Positions 3,971 through 23,390 of a stretch of 64,000 bases of DNA are shown piece by piece. The stretch is from contig CM059431.1 in assembly GCA_030390025.1 (NCBI GenBank), positions 124,002,001 to 124,066,000 on the forward strand, given 5' to 3'. This stretch comes from Squalus acanthias. Its lineage: Eukaryota. The notes beneath the pieces are model-generated. The model was not told the origin of the DNA. It saw only the letters and a program-made list of their open reading frames with translations, and made no database searches. Position 1 is the first letter of the stretch, and each line of letters begins with the position of its first letter. Position numbers and translations under genes: made by a program.

Positions 3971-4349
3971 TGGTGGGCAAAATGCTAGAGTCCATTATAA
4001 AAAATGTAATAGCAGAGCACTTGGAAAACAGTAACAGGATCGGACAAAGTCAACATGGATTTACAAAAGGGAAATCGTGCCATGACTAATCTACTGGAAT
4101 TTTTTGAGGATGTAACTGGTGGAATAGATAAGGGAGAACCAGTGGATGTGGTGTATTTGGACTTTCAGAAGGCTTTCGATACGGTCCCGCATAAGAGATT
4201 AGCGTGCAAAGTTAAAGCACATGGGATTGGGGGTAAGGTACTCTCTTGGATAGAGAACTGGTTGGCAGACAGGAAGCAAAGAGTTGGAATAAACGGGTCT
4301 TTTTCTGAGTGGCAGGCAGTGACAAGTGGGGTACCGCAGGGATCGGTGC
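3971..4349 (+). mobile_element. CR1 LINE fragment; 5' part of the copy split by the provirus
   Basis: Reads GKMLESII...SQHGF...DFQKAFD...SGVPQGSV, stops at the LTR and resumes at 16991 with LGPQLF. Confidence 0.92.
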
Positions 4350-4924
4350 TGTAGAATTCGCAATATATCGCGATTTTATTAATAAGGAGAAAACACAGAG
4401 TTTCGTTCAAACAGCTTTTATTTCAGCAGAATGCTGGCAGGTTTAAAGTGGACACAAGCAGCCTGTAAAATGGCCGCCGCACCTCGTGACAGAACATTCT
4501 AGACTTTTCAACAGGCAGACAAGATGGCGTTCCAGTAAACATTTGTGCAAGATCGATTAAGATTCAGCACAGTGAAGATAATACACGAGACATTATGGGT
4601 TTGCAGTATACACATAGATACTGAAATCGGTCTCCCAGGTACAAAGGAAAGCCATTGTACCGAGTAATCAAGGGCCCATCCAAAAGACATTAATATGTAA
4701 AATCCCAACGACTCTACGATGAGAGAGCCGTTAGCAGGTAGTTATACAGGACACTTGGAAGCCCCAAACCCCTCCAGGGAGAACACCGACCGATTTAACA
4801 ATGGGAGAAATATTAACAGGTACTCAGACATTTACGAGTAGCCCCGAAACCCATTAAGAACGGAGATCACCCATACAAGACATTTGGGCGCCAAACCCTA
4901 AACAAAAGAATGGACATTATAGTT

Positions 4925-4955
4925 GGGCGGGAAACGGAAGATTTTGCACTATAAT
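4925..4955 (+). promoter_or_regulatory. Candidate LTR promoter (GC box plus TATA-like box)
   Basis: GGGCGG at 4925 and TATAAT at 4950, followed about 25 nt later by a pyrimidine-rich initiator-like tract. Function is inferred. Confidence 0.45.
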
Positions 4956-5154
4956 TGCAGGCTCCAAACCGTCCATTCTCTCTCTTGCTCTTGCTGCTCT
5001 TATCATCGTGGCTGCTCCTGTGTACTCGTAGTTGGGCTTCTGCTTGCCTGTTGCCTCTTCTGAAAAGACTGTTGAACTTTCTGATCCGTTCGGATCTACC
5101 TCGTGTCGCGTAACGAAGACCTATGTTGGTAACTGGCAACGGAACCGAAGGCCC

Positions 5155-5183
5155 GAGATGAGATGAGATGAGATGAGATGAGA
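5155..5183 (+). repeat. (GAGAT)n microsatellite inside the LTR (second copy at 16170-16198)
   Basis: Five full GAGAT units plus GAGA in both LTRs. Confidence 0.9.
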
Positions 5184-5979
5184 AGAGAGGAAGACCATAT
5201 CCATCGCCACGGTCAGTAAATCCCGACCGCGCCTGTAGGTCGACTGTCCAAGTTTTCCTCGCCAGGAAGACTTCTTTGAACTTGCAAGGAAACATATCGT
5301 ATCGACGATATCGATAACTGTGCTCGAAGAGTACCTGTTAAACCAACCAACACAGGTCTTCATCACAGCAGACGGTCCAGCCTGCTAGCCGGAGCAGCAG
5401 AAGCAAGTAAACAAGTGGGACCAGGAGATCTCCTGACCGACACGTGGGTGCTGCGGTGAAAAACATCCGATCAGCTATTCGGAATTTCTCCGAGTTATCA
5501 CGAGTGGTGAGCATGAGTCTCGAAATCCTACGAATCTAGTTTAGGATAGATATTGATAGGGGAGGGTTTAAGGATTAAGGATATTTGTAATGTGTGCCCC
5601 TATTTACTTTGTGCCGTTCGTTCCTCGTTTCCCTAAGATCGACTATATAACTGTTTGTAAGATTGTACTGTCATTAATCTGTGCTTATGACATGTATTTC
5701 ATAATCTTAAGTATCATGCAATAAAGATTTTCCATTTCGTACCATTCAAACCGAGTCTACATGAGTTTCATCTCCATTACTGCTCTCGCATCTAAGTCCA
5801 GTGTCTAGAACCGTAAGGGAGAGTGATTCGAACCACTCACAGGTGTGTCTAGTGTTCCCAGACTGGCTGGAGACCAGAACAGGCAACAAGGCCTAGACCC
5901 GCACTGACATACAGGCTGCAGAGAGCCGCGTGAATCTCACAGGCTGCGAGACACGCAGGGTCAGAATCCCTTACAGAAA

Positions 5980-7792
5980 ATGGCGACCGCGGCAGGACAC
6001 TGGCAGCGAGAGGGTAGTGTGTTAGATTTTGGAATGACTGTACGAAATGTTATGCAGGAAAAGATAGCGGATTATGTGTTTGGAAAGGTTAATCTAACTA
6101 AGAAATGGATAAGTGAATTGTTAGCGGATAAGAGCCCACTAGAGGCAGCTGAAAGGTGGACAGATAGTAAAGAACATAAAAAGACACTTGAGAAAGCAGT
6201 CTGGCTTATGTGTTACAAAAGGCAGGTTCAGATTTCAAACCAGACCATTACAGCGCTAGTAGCTCGAATCAGTCATTTAGAGGGAGAAATGGAGGAGAAG
6301 GTTTCTGGAGGGGAGGTGCTCATTAAGAATTTAAATGAGTTACACCAAGAAAGCCAGGAAGTCTCCAGTCACCTTAAAACAAGGATAGATTATCTCGAGT
6401 GCCAGGTCACTGAGGCAAAATTGAATGAGAGCAGGTTAAAGGAAAGATGTAACCGCCAAGCTGCCCAGATAAGAACTCAAGAAGAGAGCTTGACGGGGGT
6501 TAGGGCGGCATATAAGTTGGCCCTTGAGGATAAGTTTCAGGGAGCCGATCATAGCGCCTGCCAAAGGGAGATAGAGCACCTCAAAAAGGCCGTGAACAAT
6601 GCGAACGGCATGGTGTGCCTTATCGATCCGTCGGCGCATCAGCCGCTAGTAAATGAGAGATTTAGAAAATCCCCACCAAATAAAGCAGAAGAAGTAGTAG
6701 CCACTGCGCCCTCCGCGCCACCCAGCTATTCAGAAACCTGGGTTAGGGGGGAAGCAATGGAAGAAACAAAAGAGCCCATTGAAAAAGAAGTAGGAAAGGG
6801 ATCGTTATATCCAGTAACGGGTATTAAAAGGGGCCCAAGCAGAAACGGTGGGGAAGAACCGGGGGATCTCCTCGGACAGCTGGTGTTGCCTCACAGTTCA
6901 CATCAGCTGAGAGCTATGATAAATCACGTACGGAAGCTGACCGAGGCAGACGACCCTTCCGTACATTTCAGAGAAGTTGAGCAAGCCGCAGCCATTAACG
7001 GCTGCGATGATGGGGAGACAGCAAAAATGCTGCTGTTCTCATTAGACAGCTCGGTCCTTCAGTGTCTCTCAGGCGAGAGCAAGAGGGGAACCAAGAGTTA
7101 TGAGGAATTAAAGAATGAGGTCCTGGAAGTGTTGGGGGGCGAACGATGAAGGTCCGTTTGCTAGAGTGGGACAGACAGTGCAGATGGAGGGAGAACCCCC
7201 GAAGGTTTTTGCCGACAGGCTGTGGCCAGTATATGAGCGCAGCTGCCTAGGTGCGCCCGAGCGCGAAGATGTGGAAGGTTTAGCTTTAACTCATTGGCTT
7301 AGGTGCATAATAGCCAACAGTTTACCAGCCGTCAGAGAGCAGGCAAAAGCATGGTTTGATCCCAATGACCCCAACATTACGGAAGAGTCGGTCTTGAATC
7401 GACTCACGTTAGGTTATCGCAATATAAGGGGTATGGCAACACGTCCCCTTAAGGGAAGAGTACATGAGGTACGACCCGCAGCCCCGTATCAAAGAGAGTG
7501 GCATCAGGAGGGTAATCGCGCCCCACAGGCAGGTAATGCTTGTTACGGGTGTGGGAAGACAGGGCACTGGCGCAAGCATTGCAGGAACCCTTGGAAGGAT
7601 TCCAAGGATAAAAATCCCGCGGTCCGAGCCCAGGCGCCTGTCCCGGCTAAGGAAGCCAAGGCACCCACCCCTCCCGACGACCTTGAAGCAGTGTTAGGAG
7701 CCATGCGCAAGCTGGTCTTGAATGCGCGTGGACAGGTGGCGGTCGCAACCGGCCCCGTAGGTGCCGCAGGACCATCTAATAGTACCCCATGA
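5980..7792 (+). CDS. gag: Gag polyprotein, split by a 1-nt frameshift in a G run near 7134-7139
   Basis: ORF 5980-7149 (coiled-coil-like region, PSAPPSY) plus ORF 7115-7792 (CCHC knuckle CYGCGKTGHWRKHC). Removing one G joins them as ...EVLGANDEGPF... Confidence 0.85.
5981..5998 (+). other. Primer-binding site, tRNA-Arg(TCG)
   Basis: TGGCGACCGCGGCAGGAC, 5 nt after the LTR, is complementary to the vertebrate tRNA-Arg(TCG) 3' end ...GTCCTGCCGCGGTCG-CCA (tRNA sequence recalled, not searched). Confidence 0.85.
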
Positions 7793-8266
7793 CTAGAACC
7801 GGCGCAGCCCGTCTACCTGTGTCCGCTTAACTATGATGCGTGGAGGCGACCTGTGGTGGAGATGGAGGTAGAGAAACAGAAGGGTAGTTATTTGTTGGAC
7901 ACGGGAGCTTCTTGCACCATAATCCATACAGATAACCCTTTTGACTCGCCGCTATCTACCAAGGTCCCATTCACGTTAGCAGGGTTCACAGGAAAAGAAC
8001 AGGCTGGCACGTTTTCCCTTCCGCTATCCATTCGTTTAGGAACACTTCGCCTTATTTGGAAGTGTATACTGATGGCATGGCAAAAGGGGGGTAGAAGAGG
8101 TATTCTCGGGTCCGATCTCCTAGCGGGACACGGGATCCTCGTGGACCTCAGAAATCACTGTCTCTGGGGGGCTAAAGGTGAAAAAGGCGAGGTAATAGTG
8201 ATTCCGGGGGAGGAAGAAACAGGGGTCCTGTGTACCAACGGACATGCAAACGTACGTGTCAGATAA
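7793..8266 (+). CDS. pro: Aspartyl protease, in frame with gag after the TGA
   Basis: LLDTGAS catalytic motif and GILGSDLL; the frame is open from the codon after the gag stop. Confidence 0.9.
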   Translation, partial: LEPAQPVYLCPLNYDAWRRPVVEMEVEKQKGSYLLDTGASCTIIHTDNPFDSPLSTKVPFTLAGFTGKEQAGTFSLPLSIRLGTLRLIWKCILMAWQKGGRRGILGSDLLAGHGILVDLRNHCLWGAKGEKGEVIVIPGEEETGVLCTNGHANVRVR

Positions 8267-11200
8267 TATGCACGCGTTTGCAACCCACAAGCACGATTGT
8301 GGGAGAGTGGTCGGGTTTGAGGTCAGCGTAGATGGGGACCCCATGACCCGACCCCAAAAGCAGTATAACTTCCCCAAAGAAGCAGAACCCGATATGGAGA
8401 CAGCAATGTCTTCCTTGGTGCAGCAGGGCGTGTTGAGGCCAATAGCCACACACGTGAACTCCCCATTATGGCCGGTTAGGAAGCCGGATAATTCGTGGAG
8501 GGCCACGGTGGACTACAGAGTCCTTAACAGTAACATTCCCGCCTGCGCGCCCACAGTAGCAGCAGTTGCTGACCTAATAGGGAGCATCCCAGCGTCCGCG
8601 ACCACGTTCACGGTGCTGGATATCTCGAACGGTTTTTGGTCCATCCCGCTGCGGCGAGAGGACCAGTACAAGTTTGCCTTTACTTTCAAAGGGCAACAGT
8701 ACACGTGGAACTGTCTGCCACAGGGTTTCCACAATAGCCCCAGTATTTTTCATCAGTGTATGGCAGGAAGTTTAAAGGAGTTTAGTCAGCCCAATCAGAT
8801 AGTACAGTATGTGGATGATTTGCTCCTATTTACGGACTCAAGGGAGGAGCACGGACCACTACTGGACGAGTTATTGGAGCTGTTAGCGAGAAAGGGTTTT
8901 AAAATAAACCCTAAGAAAGCACGTATCGGTCAGCGGGAAGTAAAATTCCTGGGACTGACCATACGCGCTGGGGAAAGAGCCATAGACAAAGCAAGGAGGG
9001 AGTCGGTGCAAGAATTACCGATTCCCAACAACGTAAGGGGTGTGAGGTCCTTCTTGGGACTGACCGGTTACTGCAGGGATTTTATCGAAGATTATGCGGC
9101 CACAGCAGCGCCGCTCCTCCGACTCCTCCATAAGGGGGTGGAGTGGCTTTGGGACGAGGGCTGCCAAGCAGCCTTCGAGAAGTTAAAAAGGGATCTGCAG
9201 ACCGCGCCAGCCTTAGGGGCCATAGATGGGGGGAAGGAGTTTTTCCTGGAGGTAGCTGCCAGCGGAGACAGCTTAAGCGCCGTACTGCTCCAAGAGCGTC
9301 ACGGCAAGCTGAGGCCGGTTGTCTATTCATCCAGGGTGTTAACGGATGTGGAGAGAAGTTTCTCCAATTGCGAAAGGCACCTTTTAGCCACGCATTGGGC
9401 TGTGAAAAGATCAGCGATCTTCACAGGGCTCTCTCCCATCACTCTCCTCACACATCACACACCAACTAAGATGCTTCTGGATGGGAGGATTAAAGACGGG
9501 ACCGTAAGCAGCGCACGCATTGCGCGTTGGACCCTTCTTCTCTCCCAGTTGGATCTTAGAGTAAAAGGTCTTTGCGAGCCAAGGCTTGCGGCCAATCTGG
9601 TATACCCCGGTACAGCCCACCGGTGTTCGGTGGAAGGGGTGTGGGACGTCAACATAGGTTTACGGGCCGGGATACATCCCACTGGGCGCGAGATTTATGT
9701 TGATGGGTCTAGCACAGTATCTGCTGGCGAACGACTCACAGGGTGTGGAGTTTATGACCCTGCGGCAGACCTTGCCCTGGCGATCAAGCTCCCTAGCACC
9801 ATGAGCGCGCAGCAGGCTGAGCTGTCTGCCGTGGTGTACGTTGTTACCCACCCAGACATTTTCCCAACCCCATACACGATTTGCTCGGACAGTATGTTCA
9901 CCTGCAATTCGTGTACGGAATACCTGGCCATTTGGTCCCGCCGCGGATACACCTCCGCGGACGGGCGACCTTTAACGGTGAAGCCCTTGCTGGAAAAGAT
10001 CTTAGCAGCAGCAGTAGGGGAGGAAGGAGAGATTTTCATCCATAAGGTGAAAGCTCACTCCTCCACAATGCCCCGTGGGGAGGGCAACCGGCAGGCGGAT
10101 GCGCTAGCCAGGGAGGGTGCCCGCGACGGCACTTTCTGGAACCCCTATAGGACCGGACCCATAGCAGCGGTCCGAGGCGGGGACGGGAATCCCGGGAACA
10201 CCAGGGTAGCATTGCCCCTAGACCTCAAGACCGTCCAAACCCAGGATCCCGCCCTAAAAGCAGTCCTAAAAACGATTGCTGAGGGGAGGCAGGTAGAAGG
10301 TCCGTACAGTACGGCAACCCTCTCAGTTAAGGAAGGCATGCTGTTCCGCGAGGAGCAGTGGGTTGTGCCGCAGCAGCACAGGAGGGAATTCCTCCAGTTG
10401 GCTCACGAGGGACCAGGGGCAGGGCACCCCGGGCCCGAGGTTACCTGGCAACGGGTAGAGCAAGCGGGATGGTGGCCAGGACTCAGGGAACAAGTCCGCG
10501 AGTTCTGCGCAAACTGTCTTGTGTGCGCTGCAAACAACCCAGACCCCCAGAAAAGGAAGGTGCCCATGGGACACGTAAGAAGGGTAGAGGGACCATGGCA
10601 GTCGATACAGATCGACTATATAGGACCCCTGCCCACCACCCAGGGAGGTTATAAGTACTGCCTCGTCCTGGTGGATGTGTTTTCCAAGTGGGTGGAAGCC
10701 TTCCCTTGTCGAACAGCTACGGCACTGGGTACAGCAAAAATCTTGGTCCGGGAAGTGTTCTCGCGGTGGGGACTCCCCCGTTTTGTGGAGTCAGACCAAG
10801 GGAGTCATTTCACCGGCCAGGTGATGCAGAACACCCTCATGCTTTTGGGCATTGAAGGGAAGTGGCACGTAGCACACAATCCCCAGTCATCCGGGATTGT
10901 TGAACGTATGAACCGGACCCTGAAGGAGAAATTGAGGAAAGAGACTAGGAACTCGCCCCAAAAATGGGCGGAAGTTCTGCCTTTAGTCCTCATGGGGGTC
11001 CGGGCCAGTCAGTCAAAAAGTACGGGGTACTCCCCGCACGAGGTAATGACCGGCAGGCTCATGCGAACCCCCACCCATGTGCTAGCGCCGGTGCTCACTG
11101 AGGGTCAGCTCCAGGAGATAAGCAGGGACAAGTTCGCCCAGACTCTCTTGGAGCGCCTGAAGCAAGTTTATGAGCAGGCGGCTGGGAACATGGGAAGGCA

Positions 11201-12278
11201 GCATCAGGGCAATCGCTTGTTGCTGGAACCCCGCAAAACGCGGGAGTGGGAAGTAGGAGACCAGGTCATGGTCAGAAACTACGCCAGAGTAGGGAGTCTG
11301 GAACCACTGTATATGGGACCCTACAACATTGTCGACAAGGCGAGTCCCATGGTTTACGCCGTAAAAGTACCACGGCGCACTAAGTGGTTCCACATAAACC
11401 AATGCAAACTGTACCAGCCAGGTGTGCAGGGGAAAACTACAGGGGTAAATCCCGCCAATGGGAAAGCACAGCCCCAGGTAGGACCACAAGGCACACAGGC
11501 AGGCATAGCAGCTTGCATCAGGGGAAGGGACATCCCGGACGATCATGCAGCGTTTTTCTGGAATTGGGGGTTAGATGAGGAAGAATTCAGGGTACCCGGG
11601 TCAGATGAGGATAGTGCAGATGAGGATAGTGATGACGACGGGTGGTTTCGGAGGAACGGTCCCTTTTACGATATGGAGGGGACGGGGGCTGCAGGTAGAG
11701 ATCCACACAGGGTGGACACACGAGCTGCAGGTCCCGAAGACAGGAGGGAGGAGCTAGAGGAGGCAGGGCCAGCCGCTATGGGAGCACAGAGAGTACCGGT
11801 GTGGCTCCCAGAGATGTGGCCGCCCGCTTTGAACGTCCAGTCCTCAGGGGAGGCAGAGATCACGAGTGAAGGGCCGCCTGCTGGGCCGAGCAGGGCGGAG
11901 CCACGAACTGCCAGCCCCGAGGTTAGGGAGGCGGAGTCAGCGGAGGCGGAGCCGGCGACTGTGATGGAACCCCAGGTCACCCCGATGGAAGTCTCGGAAC
12001 CCGGTCCGTCCGTCACGGAAACCCCGCCCATAGCAACTCCCCGTAGGTCAAGTAGAGAACCCCAGCCCAGGAGGATGTGGTCATGTCCCCAGACTGCCCC
12101 AAGGCGGAAATTTAAGGTTAAGATAACCCAGGTACAGACCGGCCACATCGCAGCAGTAACAGGCTGCGGCAGATCAGAGGGAAGGGTCAGCGCAGCAACA
12201 GGCTGCGGCAGATCAGAGGGAAGGGTCAGTGCCCTCCCACCGTCGGGAAGAGCTCGCAGCAGCCTTCTCAGAATTTAA
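8244..12278 (+). CDS. pol: Pol: reverse transcriptase, degenerate RNase H (tether), RNase H, integrase and an acidic/proline-rich tail
   Basis: RT motifs NSPLWPVRK, LDISNGFW, LPQGF, YVDD (8808-8819). First RNase H FFLEVAAS..LSAVLLQ; second RNase H YVDGS/SAQQAEL/SDS/HKVKAH/GNRQADALA. Integrase HHCC, IDYIGP, SDQG, GIVERMNRTLK, GPY. Out of frame with pro. Confidence 0.95.
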   Translation: MQTYVSDNMHAFATHKHDCGRVVGFEVSVDGDPMTRPQKQYNFPKEAEPDMETAMSSLVQQGVLRPIATHVNSPLWPVRKPDNSWRATVDYRVLNSNIPACAPTVAAVADLIGSIPASATTFTVLDISNGFWSIPLRREDQYKFAFTFKGQQYTWNCLPQGFHNSPSIFHQCMAGSLKEFSQPNQIVQYVDDLLLFTDSREEHGPLLDELLELLARKGFKINPKKARIGQREVKFLGLTIRAGERAIDKARRESVQELPIPNNVRGVRSFLGLTGYCRDFIEDYAATAAPLLRLLHKGVEWLWDEGCQAAFEKLKRDLQTAPALGAIDGGKEFFLEVAASGDSLSAVLLQERHGKLRPVVYSSRVLTDVERSFSNCERHLLATHWAVKRSAIFTGLSPITLLTHHTPTKMLLDGRIKDGTVSSARIARWTLLLSQLDLRVKGLCEPRLAANLVYPGTAHRCSVEGVWDVNIGLRAGIHPTGREIYVDGSSTVSAGERLTGCGVYDPAADLALAIKLPSTMSAQQAELSAVVYVVTHPDIFPTPYTICSDSMFTCNSCTEYLAIWSRRGYTSADGRPLTVKPLLEKILAAAVGEEGEIFIHKVKAHSSTMPRGEGNRQADALAREGARDGTFWNPYRTGPIAAVRGGDGNPGNTRVALPLDLKTVQTQDPALKAVLKTIAEGRQVEGPYSTATLSVKEGMLFREEQWVVPQQHRREFLQLAHEGPGAGHPGPEVTWQRVEQAGWWPGLREQVREFCANCLVCAANNPDPQKRKVPMGHVRRVEGPWQSIQIDYIGPLPTTQGGYKYCLVLVDVFSKWVEAFPCRTATALGTAKILVREVFSRWGLPRFVESDQGSHFTGQVMQNTLMLLGIEGKWHVAHNPQSSGIVERMNRTLKEKLRKETRNSPQKWAEVLPLVLMGVRASQSKSTGYSPHEVMTGRLMRTPTHVLAPVLTEGQLQEISRDKFAQTLLERLKQVYEQAAGNMGRQHQGNRLLLEPRKTREWEVGDQVMVRNYARVGSLEPLYMGPYNIVDKASPMVYAVKVPRRTKWFHINQCKLYQPGVQGKTTGVNPANGKAQPQVGPQGTQAGIAACIRGRDIPDDHAAFFWNWGLDEEEFRVPGSDEDSADEDSDDDGWFRRNGPFYDMEGTGAAGRDPHRVDTRAAGPEDRREELEEAGPAAMGAQRVPVWLPEMWPPALNVQSSGEAEITSEGPPAGPSRAEPRTASPEVREAESAEAEPATVMEPQVTPMEVSEPGPSVTETPPIATPRRSSREPQPRRMWSCPQTAPRRKFKVKITQVQTGHIAAVTGCGRSEGRVSAATGCGRSEGRVSALPPSGRARSSLLRI

Positions 12279-12564
12279 AGGGGCCGCCCTGAGAACGGGC
12301 GGCACTGTATAGTAAGTAGTAATAAGTTTTAAGTTTATAGTTCAAGGTTGAGTTTTATGTTTTATTAAGGTTAAGTTTATAGTGTTTTTAAAAGAAAACG
12401 ACAAAATGATGGGAGCTTTAAAGATAGGTTTAGTTGAAGTTTATTCAGCGAACGTTGAAGTTTACGTGAGGCGAGGTCAGGGGACCCGCTCACCCTTCAC
12501 AAAAGCCAGAGACTCTTGCGAGGCTGGCTACCTCATTCTATCTGATCACAGGAACCAAGGAAGG

Positions 12565-14916
12565 ATGGAACGAATTCTAGTATTGCTCGTGGCAATCGGA
12601 TGTGGATTGGCCTATCGAGGCCGCACCAAGGATGTCGTGGTGTTTGGATGTTCCGGGGACACGGCCCCCATCGCGGTGGATGGGACCGGAAGACGGGAGG
12701 CAGAGGAGACCAGCACCTATTTCCACAAGGGAAGGTGGCCAGGATGGCTGGGAACGAACTCAACGGAGTATTCCAGCACATCGGGGTTTGCCTACCAAGA
12801 GACTTCTTTACTGTGCCCCAAAGTAAGGATCATCGCACCCAGGATCAGCGTCACCGTCGGCAAACGGATTTGTTTGACTTGTAGTGGGAAGGTCCCATTG
12901 AGCCGATGGTGGTGGCTGCGAAAGCTGAGCAAAACTATGAGGAACTCTTCGGTCGAGTGGGAACGACTGGGTAATAATACCCATCGGACAATTACGGGGA
13001 CAGACGGACAAGTGAAAGTCTGGTGGGACAAATGGTGGGAACCGGATGAGGGAATTTATGTATGTATGTGGGGGTCAAAGTACGTTTGCCCCAAAGGCAT
13101 CTCCATATTTTTTATTAATCAATGGCAGGATAACGGTCAGGGGATGAGGTGGGATGCGAGCACCAGGGGGTGCGGAGCCCCATTCTCCCCGATCCCAGTA
13201 AATGCCACTGAGCTCATTACGCGCCCACGCAAAGCCCCGCCCACGATTCCGGTGGTTCTAGCTGAGGAAGAAGGGTGCCCTAAAACTAGTAAGGGACCCG
13301 GGAATGGTTTGGTACTGGTCCCCACAGACCAGATACTATTTCAAGGGGTACATTACGCGGTGGCCTCGGTGATTTTAAATCTTACTGAGGTGCGGTTACC
13401 AGAGTGGTGCCCCAAAAAGACGGAACAGTTGTACCAGGTCCTGTTGACCAAGATGTTCAGACAATTTTACGAATTCGATTTCGCGGAAATTGATAAAACA
13501 AGTTTGTACACCGCACCACAGGAAGTTTTGGATCAAGTAGGGAGGCAAAGAAGGGGTTTGGTGAACGATGCGTTCACTGCTTTTAACACAGGTACATCTG
13601 TGGTCAACGCTCTAGACAGTGTGGAGCTGCAGACCCAGATTAATGGTTTAAAGACACAATTAAAGGACATTCTAACAGATGAGAATAAAGTGGTAGGGTC
13701 GGGTTTACACGAGGACCAAGCCATGACCCTCCATTTAAAGGAAATTATAGCAGAGTTGGAGAAACATGCAAAGACGGTAAATGCCCTGATTAGGGAAGAT
13801 CGGAATGCATCCGATCAGGCTGCGCAGAACGAGGTGTGCGTGCTTTACGGGGCGTGGTTACTGGGCGAGGGCCGCAGTAATTTGGAGGATTTAAAACAAG
13901 GTTTGGTCCCGTCCTGGATAAGTAACAAACACCTGCAGGCGCTCCACCCTTTTCAGAACACATTAAACCCGTGCCAGCTCAGGCTAGCTTCAGAAGCTTA
14001 CCCAGTCCCCGTGGACTGTGGACGATCAAACCATACCATCATGGGTATAGTTTTACGTATGCCGGTTTTGGGCGACACAGCAAAGCCCGCCCCGGTGTAT
14101 CGGGTAGAGAACATTGGTGTCATTCAGGGGGGAGCCCACATTCGCTATGCAGCGGTTCCACCTTACGTCATCCGCTGGGAGCAAACGATGACAGGTACAG
14201 ATCTCTCTGGTTGTCGTGGCAGGGGAGCACACATAATACTGTGTCCCCAGCACTTGAATGCCTTTTTAACACCACAGTGCGGGTTCAGAACGACTGGCGC
14301 CAAGTCCATGAATTGCACCATGGAGGCAATGGCACAAGATCATGTGCCTCCGCAGGTAGCATACATCGGGGGTGGAACATATTGTGTTACCACTGCAGCG
14401 CAACACTACCAGCATGGAAACCGTAGCCGGTGTCCGGTGAGTGACAGCAGTTTCTGTTTTAAACCCAGGGCGGAAGTTCAAGTTGCACAACAGCGAATTA
14501 TCCCAATCCCTGAACCATCCACTGTTCATCTCACAGTAAAAGAGAATTTCACCGACTTGCAGCGATTCGTCGCGCATTTTGGATACACCATTCCCCCTCT
14601 CCCTGAACACCTCACCAAGCTTTTGAAAGCCGTCGCGGTGTCACAGAAACATTTTTATACATTAGAGCAGAAAACTGTCGAAATAGGAACAGACATTCTG
14701 GATATAGTAGTTCCACCGTGGTGGAATCTGTTCACAAATATTGAAGTGCCTTCATGGATTAGAATAGCCTCCCACATTTTAGTCGTATGCCAAGTGTTTA
14801 TCGTAGTGTACCTATTGGTCGTACATTGTAAAAGAGGCAAACGCCTCACCAAGCATGAAAACACGGGAGAGTGGCGAGAACGTTACGTGCGCGTGCACGA
14901 TGAGAGCACCGTGTAA
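12565..14916 (+). CDS. env: Envelope glycoprotein: signal peptide, Ig-like domain, class I fusion (F-like) module and transmembrane anchor
   Basis: Signal-like MERILVLLVAIGCGLA; LTC..W..DEGIYVC; furin site RQRR (13543-13554) followed by a heptad repeat; Cys-rich region; hydrophobic anchor IASHILVVCQVFIVVYLLVV; several N-X-S/T sequons. The ORF is open from 12382. Confidence 0.88.
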   Translation: MERILVLLVAIGCGLAYRGRTKDVVVFGCSGDTAPIAVDGTGRREAEETSTYFHKGRWPGWLGTNSTEYSSTSGFAYQETSLLCPKVRIIAPRISVTVGKRICLTCSGKVPLSRWWWLRKLSKTMRNSSVEWERLGNNTHRTITGTDGQVKVWWDKWWEPDEGIYVCMWGSKYVCPKGISIFFINQWQDNGQGMRWDASTRGCGAPFSPIPVNATELITRPRKAPPTIPVVLAEEEGCPKTSKGPGNGLVLVPTDQILFQGVHYAVASVILNLTEVRLPEWCPKKTEQLYQVLLTKMFRQFYEFDFAEIDKTSLYTAPQEVLDQVGRQRRGLVNDAFTAFNTGTSVVNALDSVELQTQINGLKTQLKDILTDENKVVGSGLHEDQAMTLHLKEIIAELEKHAKTVNALIREDRNASDQAAQNEVCVLYGAWLLGEGRSNLEDLKQGLVPSWISNKHLQALHPFQNTLNPCQLRLASEAYPVPVDCGRSNHTIMGIVLRMPVLGDTAKPAPVYRVENIGVIQGGAHIRYAAVPPYVIRWEQTMTGTDLSGCRGRGAHIILCPQHLNAFLTPQCGFRTTGAKSMNCTMEAMAQDHVPPQVAYIGGGTYCVTTAAQHYQHGNRSRCPVSDSSFCFKPRAEVQVAQQRIIPIPEPSTVHLTVKENFTDLQRFVAHFGYTIPPLPEHLTKLLKAVAVSQKHFYTLEQKTVEIGTDILDIVVPPWWNLFTNIEVPSWIRIASHILVVCQVFIVVYLLVVHCKRGKRLTKHENTGEWRERYVRVHDESTV

Positions 14917-15352
14917 TCGGAAAATGGCGTCACTCCCGCTCGCCACGTGCGCCGCGGAAGCCTGTACTCATATAAGATTTTCAGAGATTGTAAATACGTT
15001 GGAAACTCGACATGTTAAGAGTTGGTGTTGATTATTTTGGTGATGGTGTTACAGTTAAAAATGATTGTTTGGTTTTGGGTTTTGTTTTTCCTTACCCTGA
15101 ATAAAAGATGAATATACAGGTGATACGAGAGGCATCGGCCTGGTTACGCCGGGAAGGAAAACAAGTGGTGTAAGTTTAAGGGCAAATAATGCCTACGGTG
15201 ATATAAAATGTAATTTTCTTGGGAAATGAGGACGACACAGAGACCCTAGCTAAGTTAAAATTATGGGATTAATTTACTGGATTCGGAGAGAAATCGAGAT
15301 AATATTGCTCACCACTATGATTTTTGATACGATAAGCGGAGTTATTCGCATC

Positions 15353-15364
15353 AACAGGAGGGAC
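15353..15364 (+). other. Polypurine tract
   Basis: AACAGGAGGGAC lies immediately before the 3' LTR; short and imperfect. Confidence 0.6.
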
Positions 15365-16990
15365 TGTAGAATTCGCAATATATCGCGATTTTATTAATAA
15401 GGAGAAAACACAGAGTTTCGTTCAAACAGCTTTTATTTCAGCAGAATGCTGGCAGGTTTAAAGTGGACACAAGCAGCCTGTAAAATGGCCGCCGCACCTC
15501 GTGACAGAACATTCTAGACTTTTCAACAGGCAGACAAGATGGCGTTCCAGTAAACATTTGTGCAAGATCGATTAAGATTCAGCACAGTGAAGATAATACA
15601 CGAGACATTATGGGTTTGCAGTATACACATAGATACTGAAATCGGTCTCCCAGGTACAAAGGAAAGCCATTGTACCGAGTAATCAAGGGCCCATCCAAAA
15701 GACATTAATATGTAAAATCCCAACGACTCTACGATGAGAGAGCCGTTAGCAGGTAGTTATACAGGACACTTGGAAGCCCCAAACCCCTCCAGGGAGAACA
15801 CCGACCGATTTAACAATGGGAGAAATATTAACAGGTACTCAGACATTTACGAGTAGCCCCGAAACCCATTAAGAACGGAGATCACCCATACAAGACATTT
15901 GGGCGCCAAACCCTAAACAAAAGAATGGACATTATAGTTGGGCGGGAAACGGAAGATTTTGCACTATAATTGCAGGCTCCAAACCGTCCATTCTCTCTCT
16001 TGCTCTTGCTGCTCTTATCATCGTGGCTGCTCCTGTGTACTCGTAGTTGGGCTTCTGCTTGCCTGTTGCCTCTTCTGAAAAGACTGTTGAACTTTCTGAT
16101 CCGTTCGGATCTACCTCGTGTCGCGTAACGAAGACCTATGTTGGTAACTGGCAACGGAACCGAAGGCCCGAGATGAGATGAGATGAGATGAGATGAGAAG
16201 AGAGGAAGACCATATCCATCGCCACGGTCAGTAAATCCCGACCGCGCCTGTAGGTCGACTGTCCAAGTTTTCCTCGCCAGGAAGACTTCTTTGAACTTGC
16301 AAGGAAACATATCGTATCGACGATATCGATAACTGTGCTCGAAGAGTACCTGTTAAACCAACCAACACAGGTCTTCATCACAGCAGACGGTCCAGCCTGC
16401 TAGCCGGAGCAGCAGAAGCAAGTAAACAAGTGGGACCAGGAGATCTCCTGACCGACACGTGGGTGCTGCGGTGAAAAACATCCGATCAGCTATTCGGAAT
16501 TTCTCCGAGTTATCACGAGTGGTGAGCATGAGTCTCGAAATCCTACGAATCTAGTTTAGGATAGATATTGATAGGGGAGGGTTTAAGGATTAAGGATATT
16601 TGTAATGTGTGCCCCTATTTACTTTGTGCCGTTCGTTCCTCGTTTCCCTAAGATCGACTATATAACTGTTTGTAAGATTGTACTGTCATTAATCTGTGCT
16701 TATGACATGTATTTCATAATCTTAAGTATCATGCAATAAAGATTTTCCATTTCGTACCATTCAAACCGAGTCTACATGAGTTTCATCTCCATTACTGCTC
16801 TCGCATCTAAGTCCAGTGTCTAGAACCGTAAGGGAGAGTGATTCGAACCACTCACAGGTGTGTCTAGTGTTCCCAGACTGGCTGGAGACCAGAACAGGCA
16901 ACAAGGCCTAGACCCGCACTGACATACAGGCTGCACAGAGCCGCGTGAATCTCACAGGCTGCGAGACACGCAGGGTCAGAATCCCTTACA
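15365..16990 (+). repeat. 3' LTR (1,626 bp)
   Basis: Direct repeat of 4350-5975 at offset 11015; I noticed one mismatch (G5921 versus C16936). Confidence 0.97.
16735..16740 (+). terminator. Candidate polyadenylation signal in the LTR (also 5720-5725)
   Basis: AATAAA 250 nt from the LTR end. Confidence 0.55.
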
Positions 16991-17917
16991 GTGCTAGGAC
17001 CCCAGCTATTCACAATATATATTAATGATCTAGACGAGGGAACTAGATGTAATATCTCTAACTTTGCAGACGACACAAAGCTGGGTGGGCGTGTGTGCTG
17101 TGAGGAGGATGCAGAGAAACTCCAGTATGATTTGGACAGGTTGGGTGATTGGGCAGATGCATGGCAGATGCAGTATAATGTGGATAAATGCGAGGTTATC
17201 CACTTTGGTGGCAAAAACAGGACGACAGGTTATTATCTGAACGGCAATAGATTGGGAAAAGGGGAAGTGCAACGAGATCTGGGAGTCCTTGTGCAACAGT
17301 CGCTGAAGGTAAGCATGCAGGTGCAGCAGGTGGTTAAGAAGGCAAATGGTATGTTGGCCTTCATAGCGAGAGGATTCGCGTACAGGAGCAAGTATGTCTT
17401 GCTGCAGTTATACAAGGCCTTGGTGAGACCACACCTTGAGTATTGTGTGCAGGTTTGCTCGCCTTATCTGAGGAAGGATGTTCTTGCCATGGAGGGAGTG
17501 CAGCGAAGATTTACCAGACTGATACCAGGGGTGGCAGGAATGAAGTATGAAGAGAGATTGGGTCGATAGGCTTATATTCGCTAGAGTTTAGAAGAATGAG
17601 AGGGGATCTCATTGAAACTTATAAAATTCTAACAGGACTAGACAGACTAGATGCAGGAAGGATGTTCCCGATGGTGGGGGAGTCCAGAACCAGAGGTCAC
17701 AGTCTAAGGATAAGGGGTAAGCCATTTAGGACTGAGATGAGGAGGAATTTCTTCACCCAGAGAGTGGTGAACCTGTGGAATTCTCTACCACAGAAGGCAG
17801 TTGAGGCCAATTCATTAAATATATTCAAGAAGGAGATCAGCCATGATCTCATTAAATGGCGGAGCAGGCTCGAGGGGCCGAATGGCCTACTCCTGCTCCT
17901 ATCTTCTATGCTTCTAT
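16991..17917 (+). mobile_element. CR1 LINE; 3' part of the copy split by the provirus
   Basis: LGPQLFTIYIND, FADDTK, RPHLEYC, RGDLIETYK and a CR1 3' UTR; highly similar to the copy at 56581-58302. Confidence 0.92.
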
Positions 17918-23353: not shown

Positions 23354-23390
23354 AGTTCTGATGAAAGGTCATCGACCTGAAACGTCAACT
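23354..23390 (+). ncRNA. Minimal type I hammerhead ribozyme
   Basis: AGTT-CTGATGA-A-AGGTC-ATC-GACCT-GAAAC-GTC-AACT: catalytic core boxes, stem II hairpin and stem I pairing AGTT/AACT. Confidence 0.85.

What the first reader, a model, noticed from the sequence alone, without database searches (positions are those of the whole stretch)
13270..14830. Env core has paramyxo/pneumovirus F-protein architecture
The furin site RQRR is about 400 aa upstream of the membrane anchor, far longer than a typical retroviral TM ectodomain and similar to F1. It is followed directly by a small-residue fusion-peptide-like stretch (GLVNDAFTAFNTGTSVVNAL) and a heptad repeat (VELQTQINGLKTQLKDIL). A Cys-rich block (DLSGC...ILCP...QC...NCT...GGGTYCV...C...FCF) and a second helical segment come before the anchor. 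The segment before the cleavage site (GLVLVP...VILNL...C...LYQVLL) reads like F2. I did not see a gamma-type immunosuppressive domain or CX6CC motif.
Basis: partly seen in the sequence, partly recalled or inferred. Interest (0 to 1): 0.8.

Follow-up and report, generated by a model that had tools for sequence, protein, structure and literature searches.

The report
Retroviral envelope with F-type fusion core
The envelope gene of this very young, many-copy endogenous retrovirus, likely of a cartilaginous fish, is predicted to fold like the F fusion proteins of measles-type viruses; that layout is already published for lokiretroviruses and foamy viruses, so this is a new member of a known kind.

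Summary
Window 13270-14830 is an open 520-residue part of an 854-codon env frame. It has RQRR about 400 residues before the membrane anchor, then a small-residue segment, long helices, a 10-Cys beta-rich block, a second helix and the anchor. No Pfam Fusion_gly or PDB F match appeared with single sequences or profiles. An AlphaFold2 model from a 44-row alignment (pLDDT 72) matches paramyxo-/pneumovirus F first in PDB (Foldseek E 1.9e-11; VIA Z 12.5). In an unbiased scan of 48,161 chains the top 16 are 14 F proteins and 2 foamy-virus Env entries. Among predicted viral structures, arthropod mononegavirus glycoproteins and baculovirus F score as well as paramyxovirus F, so the nearest branch of the F superfamily is unresolved. 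The gene lies in a 12.6-kb provirus whose LTRs differ at 1 of 1,626 bases. The genome holds at least 83 near-identical env copies, and their differences are mostly silent. F-like Env is published for lokiretroviruses (2020) and foamy viruses (2024). Lokiretroviruses were reported in 0 of 6 cartilaginous-fish genomes. Lokiretrovirus membership could not be tested against named references. This scan already noted the same family about 30 times elsewhere in this genome.

The parts
4350..5975 (+). 5' LTR (TG...CA), 1,626 bp
   Evidence: Direct repeat at spacing 11,015 with one mismatch, at 5921. The ends were read.
15365..16990 (+). 3' LTR
   Evidence: The 4-bp target duplication GTGC lies at 4346-4349 and 16991-16994, and the flanks join into one LINE RT reading frame.
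5908..7792 (+). gag (coiled-coil N part, capsid-like part, CCHC knuckle); its frame is interrupted in this copy within 7112-7149
   Evidence: Two overlapping frames and a weak zf-CCHC match. Of 5 aligned sibling copies, 4 have one gag frame of 609-626 codons and the fifth carries a break of its own. All 5 differ from the window by one base in length near 7134.
7793..12278 (+). pro-pol: protease, RT, tether (degenerate RNase H), RNase H, integrase and a long acidic tail; the frame is broken near 8234 in this copy
   Evidence: Pfam matches RVP, RVT_1, RT_RNaseH_2/RT_RNaseH, RNase_H, Integrase_H2C2 and rve. The window lacks 50 bases that 5 of 5 siblings have at 8234. The closest solved RTs are MLV/XMRV at about 240 bits, foamy virus at 203-222 and Ty3 at 142-147.
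12565..14916 (+). env coding sequence from Met72 to the stop (783 codons)
   Evidence: Open frame. Upstream of Met72 the sibling differences look neutral (21 N: 6 S) and downstream they look constrained. MERILVLLVAIGCGLA is a signal-like hydrophobic start.
12616..13248 (+). extra N-terminal module (Env about 89-299) in front of the F-like core, with a possible Ig-like domain
   Evidence: It was left out of the fold model. Matches are weak only: Ig_3 (E 0.06-0.3) and CD8 alpha V domains (E 0.012-0.015). A Chiloscyllium relative is named 'Ig-like domain-containing protein' by UniRef.
13249..13554 (+). F2-like segment (Env 300-401): beta hairpin plus HRC-like helix, ending in the RQRR site (13543-13554)
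   Evidence: Model residues 13-44 are strands and 56-78 a helix, with pLDDT 84-94 in that span. They align to the N-terminal residues of F chains, model 17 onward against chain 26-38 onward.
13555..13614 (+). fusion-peptide-like segment (Env 402-421)
   Evidence: It follows the cleavage motif directly. The pattern x-N-D-x-x-T-x-x-N-T-G-x-S-x-x-N-x-L-D is conserved among relatives. It is only weakly hydrophobic and has low pLDDT (38-49), so its role is inferred.
13603..13896 (+). HRA-like long helix (Env 418-515)
   Evidence: Model helices 119-147 and 154-216 align to the central helix of post-fusion F and foamy-virus Env.
13993..14499 (+). beta-rich, Cys-rich domains I/II (Env 548-716)
   Evidence: Model strands 249-417, with pLDDT mostly 84-96. 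This is the core of the F matches. A weak profile match to foamy-virus Env 8rm1_D falls here, E 0.023.
14602..14697 (+). HRB-like helix (Env 751-782), followed by the conserved PPWW motif
   Evidence: Model helix 452-483, pLDDT about 45-60. The WW motif is conserved in relatives.
14758..14829 (+). transmembrane anchor (Env about 803-826), then a 28-residue tail to 14913
   Evidence: Highest Kyte-Doolittle window.

Best explanation
Window 12565-14916 is the intact env gene of a very young LTR-flanked provirus, and its core (Env residues about 300-830) is predicted to fold as an F-type class I viral fusion protein and would work like one. Shown directly: the gene sits after gag and pro-pol between near-identical LTRs. 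It is open in this copy and in at least 83 near-identical copies. Its Cys pattern and multibasic site are conserved in relatives from sharks, a skate and frogs. Differences among copies are mostly silent. Predicted: the fold has an F2-like hairpin and HRC helix, an HRA helix, beta-rich domains I/II and an HRB helix, as in paramyxo-/pneumovirus F and foamy-virus Env. Inferred mechanism: the precursor enters the ER through the signal peptide after Met72, trimerises, and is cut by a furin-type protease after RQRR. That cut frees the small-residue segment at Gly402 as a fusion peptide. A disulfide likely holds the two chains together (candidates Cys353 and Cys496). On triggering, HRA would extend, insert the peptide into the target membrane, and HRB would pack back on the HRA coiled coil to merge the membranes. 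The roughly 225 extra residues in front of the core, possibly Ig-like, would supply receptor binding, since no separate attachment gene is present. By lineage the element is most likely a lokiretrovirus-type retrovirus or a close sister of that group. That placement is inferred and was not tested against named references.
For: Gene context: LTRs 4350-5975 and 15365-16990 differ at 1 of 1,626 bases, have TG..CA ends and a 4-bp target duplication. Pfam finds protease, RT, tether, RNase H and integrase upstream.
Anatomy.
Copies: 83 of 83 scored matches are 99-100% identical over 520 residues with no internal stop, out of 12,068 first-look candidates. Further families at 56-63% identity keep GRQRRG or GRYKRG, and the one aligned by eye (L048) keeps all 12 Cys.
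Selection: about 0.04 (8 N / 63 S) in the F1-like part, about 0.12 in the part before the cleavage site, and about 1.0 upstream of Met72.
Relatives: 47 representatives at E 1e-3 or better, 2 of them bacterial false positives. Named ones come from Mustelus, Chiloscyllium, Heterodontus and Pristiophorus, Rhinoraja, and the frogs Pelodytes, Mantella and Xenopus tropicalis. RSKR or RRKR sits at the aligned site.
Fold: AlphaFold2 on 44 rows gives pLDDT 72.4 and pTM 0.58, with 289 of 506 residues at 70 or above. Foldseek against PDB gives 251 matches at E 1e-3 or better, and all rows shown (ranks 1-49) are paramyxo-/pneumovirus F, best 1.9e-11. VIA second look: all top 50 entries are F, with Langya F at Z 12.5 (331 aligned, 6.0 A), hPIV3 F at 12.4, Nipah F at 12.3 and RSV F at 11.2. 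VIA wide: ranks 1-16 are 14 F plus foamy-virus Env 8rm1 (Z 8.5, 272 aligned) and 8rm0 (Z 8.2). The next rows are unrelated helical proteins at Z 5.5 or less. BFVD gives 53 matches at E 1e-3 or better, nearly all F-type glycoproteins.
Language-model features: the nearest clusters are Fusion_gly and Baculo_F, score 0.93 with 204 of 256 features shared.
Literature: lokiretrovirus Env resembles PF00523 and has an RXKR site (PMC7947760, abstract and section 5 read). Foamy-virus Env is F-like (PMC11468914, passages read).
Against: No sequence-level link to F was found.
- hmmscan of the whole Env and five pieces at E up to 10 gives no PF00523 hit.
- Two divergent own-genome copies give none either, and 0 of 20 relatives hit it.
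- phmmer and profiles of 4, 7 and 44 rows against all PDB sequences give no significant F match. Langya F reaches only E 3.2.
- A PF00523 search of the own genome found nothing, but that search's controls rang nowhere either.
The model is a monomer of middling confidence. The cleavage and fusion-peptide region and HRB are below pLDDT 60, and global TM-scores are only 0.24-0.45. A single-sequence fold was useless (pLDDT 34). The putative fusion peptide is polar for its role. There are no expression or functional data. The specific branch is unresolved: BFVD ranks arthropod mononegavirus glycoproteins and baculovirus F at or above paramyxovirus F0. This copy's gag and pro-pol frames are interrupted, so this locus alone would not make particles.
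Confidence: 0.85

Rival explanations
1. The env core belongs to the baculovirus-F / errantivirus / arthropod-mononegavirus branch of the F superfamily rather than the paramyxo-/pneumovirus branch. On this reading the retrovirus captured it from an invertebrate-type virus or retroelement.
For: In BFVD the best matches are Sanxia water strider virus 4 glycoprotein (E 6.8e-15), Canya virus, arli- and lispivirus glycoproteins, and a baculovirus Ld130/F (1.6e-11, rank 5). The first paramyxovirus F0 is at rank 14 (8.7e-10). One shark relative, P0072, has a sub-threshold Baculo_F match (E 1.1e-3, 18.1 bits against a cut-off of 24.1). The ESM Atlas lists 12 Baculo_F-type clusters beside 12 Fusion_gly ones.
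Against: TM-scores are no better for these than for paramyxovirus F (0.36-0.45 against 0.41-0.42), and E-values within about 5 orders of magnitude on predicted models do not resolve branches. The window's own Env has no Baculo_F Pfam match. A preprint that screened vertebrate genomes found no intact ERVs homologous to the invertebrate F-type elements (10.1101/2023.10.26.564294, passages read). None of the PDB rows returned to me was a baculovirus F, so the Z-scores cannot be compared.
Confidence: 0.2
2. The nearest true relative is the foamy-virus (spumaretrovirus) Env. On this reading the F-type core is an old retroviral inheritance shared with foamy viruses, not a capture from a negative-strand RNA virus.
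For: The only near-significant sequence-profile match to any solved glycoprotein is foamy-virus post-fusion Env 8rm1_D. It scores E 0.023 (16.4 bits) over the Cys-rich domain, with 5 Cys and a v-e-N-I-G motif aligned, against E 3.2 for the best F. Fold matches are Z 8.5 and 8.2, and feline foamy virus gp130 appears in BFVD at 5.3e-5. The RT-RNase H of the element scores about as well to foamy virus as to MLV. Wang and Han group lokiretrovirus and foamy RNase H together (PMC7947760, passage).
Against: E 0.023 is not significant. Z is lower than for paramyxovirus F (12.5). Foamy Env has its receptor-binding domain inserted between the HRC helix and the furin site (PMC11468914). Here only about 25 residues separate the HRC-like helix from RQRR, and the extra module is N-terminal.
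Confidence: 0.25
3. It is an ordinary orthoretroviral (gamma-type or other) SU/TM envelope, and the F likeness is a generic class I resemblance of coiled coil plus anchor.
For: All class I fusogens share a cleavage site, fusion peptide, two heptad repeats and an anchor. The low-confidence long helices in the model attract unrelated coiled-coil matches at Z 4-5.5.
Against: The matches run through the beta-rich domains I/II and the F2-like hairpin (model 15-434), not just the helices. The sequence has no CX6CC. The ectodomain after cleavage is about 400 residues long.
Confidence: 0.02
4. The open frame is a domesticated host gene (syncytin-like) and not a working viral env.
For: Env-derived fragments are fused into host gene models in Pristiophorus and Heterodontus: Niban-like, cadherin-related and fbxo15. 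P0049 in Chiloscyllium is annotated as a single gene.
Against: This copy lies inside a provirus with near-identical LTRs. At least 83 copies at 99% identity are scattered over many contigs. The fused models look like annotation chimeras, since the alignment breaks off at the junctions.
Confidence: 0.03

Closest known systems
Lokiretrovirus Env and genome plan (Wang and Han 2020, Mol Biol Evol, PMC7947760; Wang and Han 2022, mBio, PMC9040795)
   Same: The layout is gag-pol-env between LTRs, with RT, tether, RNase H and integrase. Env has a signal peptide, an R-x-K/R-R cleavage site, a fusion peptide, coiled coils and an anchor, and resembles Mononegavirales F rather than orthoretroviral Env. 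Env relatives occur in Xenopus tropicalis. Pol relatives occur in Aquarana (Rana) catesbeiana and Latimeria. All three species are starred as lokiretrovirus-positive in the paper's supplement.
   Different: The paper's Loki-Str Env matches PF00523 at E 2.2e-7, whereas this Env and 20 relatives give no PF00523 match. The paper found lokiretroviruses in 0 of 6 cartilaginous-fish genomes, including Chiloscyllium punctatum, yet an Env relative comes from that species. No smc gene was seen here. The papers read do not describe the roughly 225-residue N-terminal module in front of the F-like core.
Paramyxovirus and pneumovirus F (hPIV3 1ztm, NDV 3maw/1g5g, Langya 8tve/8tvg, Nipah 8dmj, RSV 3rki, hMPV 7lze)
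   Same: The predicted fold and the order of elements match: an F2 hairpin and HRC, a multibasic site, fusion peptide, HRA, domains I/II, HRB and anchor. Z is 10.5-12.5 over 290-363 residues. F1 ectodomain length is similar, at about 400 residues.
   Different: Identity is 6-15% and there is no sequence-profile match. The gene is encoded by a reverse-transcribing provirus. There are about 225 extra residues at the N-terminus and no separate attachment protein gene. The fusion peptide is more polar.
Foamy-virus Env gp130 (8RM0/8RM1; Fernandez et al. 2024, Sci Adv, PMC11468914)
   Same: It is a retroviral Env with an F-type core ('subclass Ib'). Z is 8.2-8.5 over 272-274 residues, and there is a weak profile match in the Cys-rich domain.
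   Different: The foamy receptor-binding domain is inserted just upstream of the furin site, and a membrane-spanning leader peptide stays in the complex. Here the extra module is N-terminal, as that paper describes for coronavirus spike.
Baculovirus F (Ld130) and F-type ENV of errantiviruses and other invertebrate retroelements (preprint 10.1101/2023.10.26.564294)
   Same: It is an F-type fusogen carried by non-paramyxoviral elements, with a furin site and a hydrophobic peptide. BFVD matches are E 1.6e-11 to 1.1e-8.
   Different: Those are invertebrate hosts and Ty3/gypsy or DNA-virus backbones. This element's RT is retrovirus-like: it scores about 240 bits to MLV against 142-147 to Ty3, and it lies in the retrovirus-like clade of the Pol tree.

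Membership tests
Paramyxo-/pneumovirus fusion glycoprotein F0 (Pfam PF00523 Fusion_gly) | Sequence match to the family profile at or above its gathering score | tested here: not met
   There was no PF00523 hit at E up to 10 for the whole Env, five pieces and two divergent copies. Of 20 relatives, 0 hit it at E 0.01 or better. No significant F chain was found by phmmer or by profiles against PDB.
Paramyxo-/pneumovirus fusion glycoprotein F0 (Pfam PF00523 Fusion_gly) | F fold: domain III hairpin/HRC, HRA, beta domains I and II, HRB in that order | tested here: met
   The test used a predicted model (pLDDT 72.4). Foldseek E is 1.9e-11. Z is 12.5 over 331 residues at 6.0 A, with all top 50 entries F. 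F entries fill 14 of the top 16 in the wide scan.
Paramyxo-/pneumovirus fusion glycoprotein F0 (Pfam PF00523 Fusion_gly) | Multibasic cleavage site immediately before the fusion peptide, about 400 residues before the anchor | tested here: met
   RQRR is at 398-401 and the anchor at about 803-826. R-x-x-R is kept in 20 of the 27 other aligned rows. Cleavage itself is untested.
Paramyxo-/pneumovirus fusion glycoprotein F0 (Pfam PF00523 Fusion_gly) | Gene of a non-segmented negative-strand RNA virus, paired with a separate attachment protein | tested here: not met
   The gene lies between LTRs after gag and pro-pol. No attachment gene is present. The extra N-terminal module is part of the same frame.
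Paramyxo-/pneumovirus fusion glycoprotein F0 (Pfam PF00523 Fusion_gly) | Homotrimer that refolds into a six-helix bundle of HRA and HRB | not testable with these tools
   The complex prediction queue was full at every try. Only a monomer model exists.
Lokiretroviruses | LTR-gag-pol-env-LTR with a dual RNase H (tether plus RNase H) | tested here: met
   LTRs. Pfam finds RT_RNaseH_2/RT_RNaseH at Pol 317-449 and RNase_H at 497-640.
Lokiretroviruses | Env related to Mononegavirales F, with an RXKR-type site | tested here: met
   The site is RQRR here and RSKR, RRKR or RTKR in relatives. The sequence-level PF00523 match reported for Loki-Str was not reproduced for this Env.
Lokiretroviruses | RT groups with named lokiretroviruses, outside canonical retroviruses | tested here: inconclusive
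   No named lokiretrovirus sequence was available, and the supplement PDF held no matching protein text. In a quick tree of 38 Pol rows the element sits in an 11-row retrovirus-like clade (SH-aLRT 100). In that clade its neighbours are frog and coelacanth rows, apart from a 4-row clade that includes two members carrying Gag_p30 or MLVIN_C. That is compatible with membership but not decisive.
Lokiretroviruses | Known host range (lampreys, ray- and lobe-finned fishes, amphibians, reptiles) | tested here: not met
   The nearest Env and Pol relatives are from sharks and a skate. The paper's supplement lists 0 of 6 chondrichthyan genomes as positive.
Foamy-virus Env | F-type core with the receptor-binding domain inserted between HRC and the furin site | tested here: not met
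   The core fold matches at Z 8.2-8.5. However, only about 25 residues lie between the HRC-like helix (Env 355-377) and RQRR, and the extra module is N-terminal.
Gamma-type retroviral TM | CX6CC motif and immunosuppressive domain after the first heptad repeat | tested here: not met
   No two adjacent Cys occur anywhere in Env. The immunosuppressive domain was not tested with a profile.
Baculovirus F (Pfam PF12259 Baculo_F) | Profile match, or fold match to predicted baculovirus F | tested here: inconclusive
   The window's Env has no Pfam match. Relative P0072 is sub-threshold at 18.1 bits. BFVD fold matches are E 1.6e-11 to 1.1e-8, comparable to paramyxovirus F0.

The most novel reading that the evidence does not exclude
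This is a recently or still active, env-dependent retrovirus lineage of cartilaginous fishes, either a lokiretrovirus in a host class where none was reported or a sister group of lokiretroviruses. Its F-type Env shares ancestry with foamy-virus Env and apparently with epsilonretrovirus Env. If so, the F-type (subclass Ib) fusogen, here with a built-in N-terminal Ig-like receptor binder, was the ancestral retroviral envelope rather than a one-off capture from a negative-strand RNA virus.
Probability: 0.2. Interest if true: 0.75.

Novelty: new member of a known kind. Interest (0 to 1): 0.45.

Why it matters
F-like envelopes on retroviruses are already in print. Lokiretroviruses were linked to F by sequence in 2020 and foamy viruses by cryo-EM in 2024, so the central claim is not new.

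This locus adds three things:
- A fold-level confirmation for a very divergent branch that sequence profiles miss.
- A host class, cartilaginous fishes, in which the 2020 survey found no lokiretroviruses.
- An unusually good natural data set. It has dozens of intact, near-identical env copies, older families at 56-63% identity in the same genome, and relatives in sharks, a skate and frogs.

That data set could be used to ask whether F-type Env is ancestral in retroviruses, and how an F scaffold acquires its own receptor-binding head.

Tried and rejected
- **Single-sequence AlphaFold2** of the 520-residue stretch gave pLDDT 34 and was unusable.
- **Word-indexed protein searches** with Env found only two or three chimeric gene models.
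- **The search for related loci** in viral and metagenome contigs found nothing.
- **PF00523 search of the own genome** gave 0 matches. Its controls rang in none of 14 genomes, so this says nothing.
- **Weak Pfam DUF6360 matches** in the HRA region (E 0.005-0.05) and KIP1 or AAA_13 matches were treated as coiled-coil noise.
- **Second ESM Atlas call**, on the Chiloscyllium relative, gave a best score of 0.82 with no named family and no structure search.
- **Complex prediction** for an HRA/HRB six-helix bundle was not available.
- **Sequencing runs:** no RNA holder was listed.
  - The one raw-read RNA run laid gave 0 reads, which is no test.
  - Two small runs guessed to be RNA show contig depth several-fold higher over env and the LTR than over pol. 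No splice joint was seen, and their nature is a guess, so I draw nothing from it.
- **Orthoretroviral TM and coronavirus spike:** no orthoretroviral TM appears in the rows shown by the PDB fold searches. Coronavirus spike is absent from those PDB rows as well, while nidovirus spike-type proteins do appear in BFVD. These absences are not evidence that the folds differ.
- **Supplement of PMC7947760** was searched for five short peptide motifs to find lokiretrovirus protein text, with no occurrence.
- **Literature searches** for 'lokiretrovirus' with 'cartilaginous' found nothing that reports this element. The same holds for 'endogenous retrovirus', 'fusion glycoprotein', 'paramyxovirus' and 'shark' together, and for 'lokiretrovirus', 'foamy virus' and 'paramyxo' from 2023 on. 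Subscription papers and bioRxiv supplements were not searchable.


Full report
**What is at the coordinates.** It is the larger part of a stop-to-stop frame, 12352-14916, of 854 codons. In that numbering:
- RQRR is residues 398-401.
- GLVNDAFTAFNTGTSVVNAL follows directly, then VELQTQINGLKTQLKDIL.
- Cys residues lie at 309 and 353 before the site, and at 496, 541, 556, 621, 631, 643, 655, 678, 694 and 702 after it.
- The strongest hydrophobic stretch is about 803-826, followed by a 28-residue tail.

The basic site is therefore about 400 residues before the anchor, as stated. No two Cys are adjacent, so there is no CX6CC. Met72 (MERILVLLVAIGCGLA...) is the likely start. Among 11 sibling copies the variant sites upstream of it are 21 non-synonymous to 6 synonymous (ratio about 1.0). 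Between Met72 and the cleavage site they are 11 to 27 (about 0.12), and after the cleavage site 8 to 63 (about 0.04). Those siblings were chosen by protein similarity to residues 307-826, which biases the last figure downward.

**Context.** The gene is the third gene of a 12,641-bp provirus, 4350-16990.
- The LTRs, 4350-5975 and 15365-16990, differ at one base of 1,626 and begin TG and end CA.
- They are flanked by a GTGC duplication, and the two flanks join into one LINE reverse-transcriptase frame.
- Upstream lie gag (a weak CCHC match), a protease, RT, a degenerate RNase H 'tether', RNase H and integrase.
- RT-RNase H scores about 240 bits to MLV/XMRV RT, 203-222 to foamy-virus PR-RT, 142-147 to Ty3 and about 60 to HIV.

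In this copy gag is split over two frames within 7112-7149, and protease and RT are in different frames. Five aligned sibling copies all differ from the window by one base in length near 7134 and carry 50 bases at 8234 that the window lacks. Four of the five have a single gag frame of 609-626 codons, a stop, and then a continuous pro-pol frame; the fifth has a further break of its own in gag. This locus therefore has an intact env but interrupted gag and pro-pol.

**Abundance and diversity.** A six-frame search of the window's own 3.7-Gb genome scored 83 matches out of 12,068 first-look candidates. All 83 are 99-100% identical over the 520 residues with no internal stop. Two motif patterns, built to skip the window's own codon choice, found 510 and 176 further sites, against 0 for the reversed controls. 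These include families only 56-63% identical in protein (L048, L065). Both keep a multibasic site (GRQRRG or GRYKRG), and L048, aligned by eye, keeps all 12 core Cys. Public runs under six coded organism labels in seven studies hold half or so of the env's sampled words.

**Sequence-level tests of the F hypothesis fail.**
- hmmscan against Pfam found no Fusion_gly (PF00523) match at E up to 10 for the whole Env, five pieces of it, or two divergent copies.
- phmmer against all PDB chain sequences found nothing relevant.
- Shallow profiles of 4 and 7 rows found nothing for the core. They found only weak CD8-alpha V-domain matches (E 0.012-0.015) for the N-terminal module.
- An exhaustive phmmer scan of 1.84 billion representatives gave 47 proteins at E 1e-3 or better. 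Two are bacterial repeat proteins.
- Named relatives come from the sharks Mustelus, Chiloscyllium, Heterodontus and Pristiophorus, the skate Rhinoraja, and the frogs Pelodytes, Mantella and Xenopus tropicalis.
- None of 20 relatives scanned matches PF00523. One has a sub-threshold Baculo_F match.
- A 44-row profile against PDB gave no significant F match; Langya F scored E 3.2. Its best glycoprotein match was foamy-virus post-fusion Env 8rm1_D, at E 0.023 over the Cys-rich domain with five Cys aligned.

In the 44-row alignment the 12 Cys are kept in 13/24 to 27/28 of covering rows, and R-x-x-R is kept in 20 of the 27 other rows at the site.

**Fold-level tests succeed.** With the 44-row alignment AlphaFold2 gave mean pLDDT 72.4 and pTM 0.58, with 289 of 506 residues at 70 or above. 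Model residue n corresponds to Env n+299. The elements are:

| Model residues | Element | pLDDT |
|---|---|---|
| 13-44 | beta hairpin | 84-94 |
| 56-78 | helix | 84-94 |
| 86-124 | cleavage site and fusion-peptide-like segment | below 50 |
| 119-147 and 154-216 | long helices | rising from about 50 to 90 |
| 249-417 | beta-rich block | mostly 84-96 |
| 452-483 | helix | about 45-60 |

- Foldseek against PDB returned 251 matches at E 1e-3 or better. Every row shown (ranks 1-49) is a paramyxo- or pneumovirus F. The best is hPIV3 F 1ztm at 1.9e-11 over 486-500 columns, at 10-16% identity.
- VIA-align on Foldseek's top chains gave 201 chains at Z 8 or above, and the top 50 entries are all F. Langya post-fusion F scores Z 12.5 (331 residues, 6.0 A), hPIV3 12.4, Nipah 12.3, NDV 12.0, RSV 11.2 and hMPV 10.5.
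- The Foldseek-independent scan of 48,161 representative chains put 14 F entries and the two foamy-virus Env entries (8rm1 Z 8.5, 8rm0 Z 8.2) in ranks 1-16. Below that are unrelated helical proteins at Z 5.5 or less.
- The matches span model 15-434. They cover the F2-like piece, HRA and domains I/II, not only the coiled coil.
- ESM Atlas features had pointed the same way: Fusion_gly and Baculo_F clusters at 0.93 with 204 of 256 features shared, though recognition was below the tool's trust level.

**Which branch of the F superfamily?** Against predicted viral structures (BFVD) 53 matches reach E 1e-3 or better. The best are:
- Glycoproteins of arthropod mononegaviruses (Sanxia water strider virus 4 at 6.8e-15, Canya virus, arli- and lispiviruses).
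- A fish filovirus-like glycoprotein (1.3e-12).
- Baculovirus F/Ld130 (1.6e-11).
- Paramyxovirus F0, from 8.7e-10.

The Env of walleye epidermal hyperplasia virus 1 (2.3e-8), a torovirus S and feline foamy virus gp130 (5.3e-5) also appear. TM-scores are alike (0.34-0.45). The core is therefore an F-type fusogen, but paramyxo-/pneumovirus F is not shown to be its nearest kin.

**What is known.**
- Wang and Han (2020, PMC7947760; abstract, section 5, passages and supplement tables read) described lokiretroviruses. These have gag-pol-env between LTRs, a tether plus RNase H, and an Env with signal peptide, RXKR site, fusion peptide, coiled coil and anchor that matches PF00523 at E 2.2e-7. Hosts are lampreys, bony fishes, amphibians and reptiles.
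- Their supplement lists 6 cartilaginous-fish genomes screened and 0 positive, among them Chiloscyllium punctatum. An Env relative (P0049, E 1.7e-50) comes from that species.
- Xenopus tropicalis, Rana catesbeiana and Latimeria are starred as positive. They supply Env relatives (Xenopus) or Pol relatives (the other two, at 40-43% identity).
- Fernandez et al. (2024, PMC11468914; passages read) showed by cryo-EM that foamy-virus Env has the F core. They grouped F, coronavirus spike and foamy Env as 'subclass Ib', with receptor-binding modules added at the N-terminus or inserted before the furin site.
- A preprint on invertebrate F-type ENV (10.1101/2023.10.26.564294; passages read) cites lokiretrovirus Env as F-like.
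- Searches of the held library found no report of such an element in cartilaginous fishes and no paper that links lokiretrovirus and foamy Env.

**Lineage.** I could not obtain named lokiretrovirus sequences. A quick tree of 38 Pol rows places the element, with an 89%-identical Logan protein, in an 11-row retrovirus-like clade (SH-aLRT 100). In that clade its neighbours are frog and coelacanth rows. A 4-row clade, which includes two members carrying Gag_p30 or MLVIN_C, and 27 Ty3/gypsy rows lie apart. This fits a lokiretrovirus or a sister lineage but does not prove either.

**How it most likely works.** Everything here is inferred, except the gene structure and conservation, which are shown, and the fold, which is predicted. 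The precursor is made from Met72 with a signal peptide and trimerises. A furin-type protease cuts it after RQRR. The F2-like chain, with its roughly 225-residue N-terminal module, would stay attached to the anchored F1-like chain, likely through a Cys353-Cys496-type disulfide. The N-terminal module, possibly Ig-like, would bind the receptor, since the provirus has no attachment gene. Triggering would let HRA extend and insert the Gly402 segment into the target membrane. HRB would then fold back into a six-helix bundle. The excess of silent changes among copies argues that env was needed while the family spread, which points to reinfection rather than purely intracellular copying.

**Verdict.** The finding is a new member of a known kind. 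The same family was noted about 30 times elsewhere in this genome by this scan. Those notes agree with mine but were not used as evidence.

Noticed in passing
window 7112-7149 and about 8234: This provirus copy has interrupted gag and pro-pol frames although its LTRs are 99.9% identical. All five aligned siblings differ by one base in length near 7134 and carry 50 bases at 8234 that the window lacks. Four of the five have one gag frame, a stop, and then a continuous pro-pol frame in the same frame (gamma-/epsilon-like read-through layout).
   Followed up: partly
window 12616-13248 (Env about 89-299): The F-like core is preceded by about 225 extra residues with weak Ig-type signals: Pfam Ig_3 at E 0.06-0.3 and CD8-alpha V domains at E 0.012-0.015 with a 7-row profile. 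Earlier notes of this scan read it as an Ig-like receptor-binding head. I did not fold it.
   Followed up: partly
window 4320-4349 and 16991-17569; also 3025-4089: The provirus sits inside a LINE-type reverse-transcriptase frame. The flanks read ...GVPQGSVLGPQLFTIYINDL... across the insertion, with a GTGC target duplication.
   Followed up: yes
window 23262-26276 (+): An open 1,004-codon frame has RT motifs (YIDD) and a C-terminal GIY-YIG-like motif. It looks like a Penelope-like element (recognised by eye) and lies in a stretch of strongly negative GC skew. Pfam gave no match at E 1e-5.
   Followed up: no
window 29020-30348 (+) and 47315-48385 (-): Two further reverse-transcriptase frames (RVT_1, E 2e-31 and 5e-32), presumably LINEs.
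   Followed up: no
BFVD hit Q9WHI8: The 1,317-residue Env of walleye epidermal hyperplasia virus 1, an epsilonretrovirus, matches the model at Foldseek E 2.3e-8. F-type cores may therefore also occur in canonical fish retroviruses. I did not check whether this is in print.
   Followed up: no
protein P0049 (Chiloscyllium punctatum): A 739-residue Env relative (28% identity, RRKR site, same Cys pattern) comes from a species whose genome was screened in the 2020 lokiretrovirus survey and scored negative. Either that survey missed the lineage or its RT falls outside lokiretroviruses.
   Followed up: partly
window 5976-5997: Directly after the 5' LTR comes AAAA TGGCGACCGCGG..., a primer-binding-site-like TGG start that overlaps the first ATG of the gag frame. 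The tRNA was not identified.
   Followed up: no
proteins P0004, P0005, P0072: Env fragments of this family are fused into host gene models (Niban-like, cadherin-related 5-like, fbxo15) in Pristiophorus and Heterodontus annotations. These are probably annotation chimeras.
   Followed up: partly
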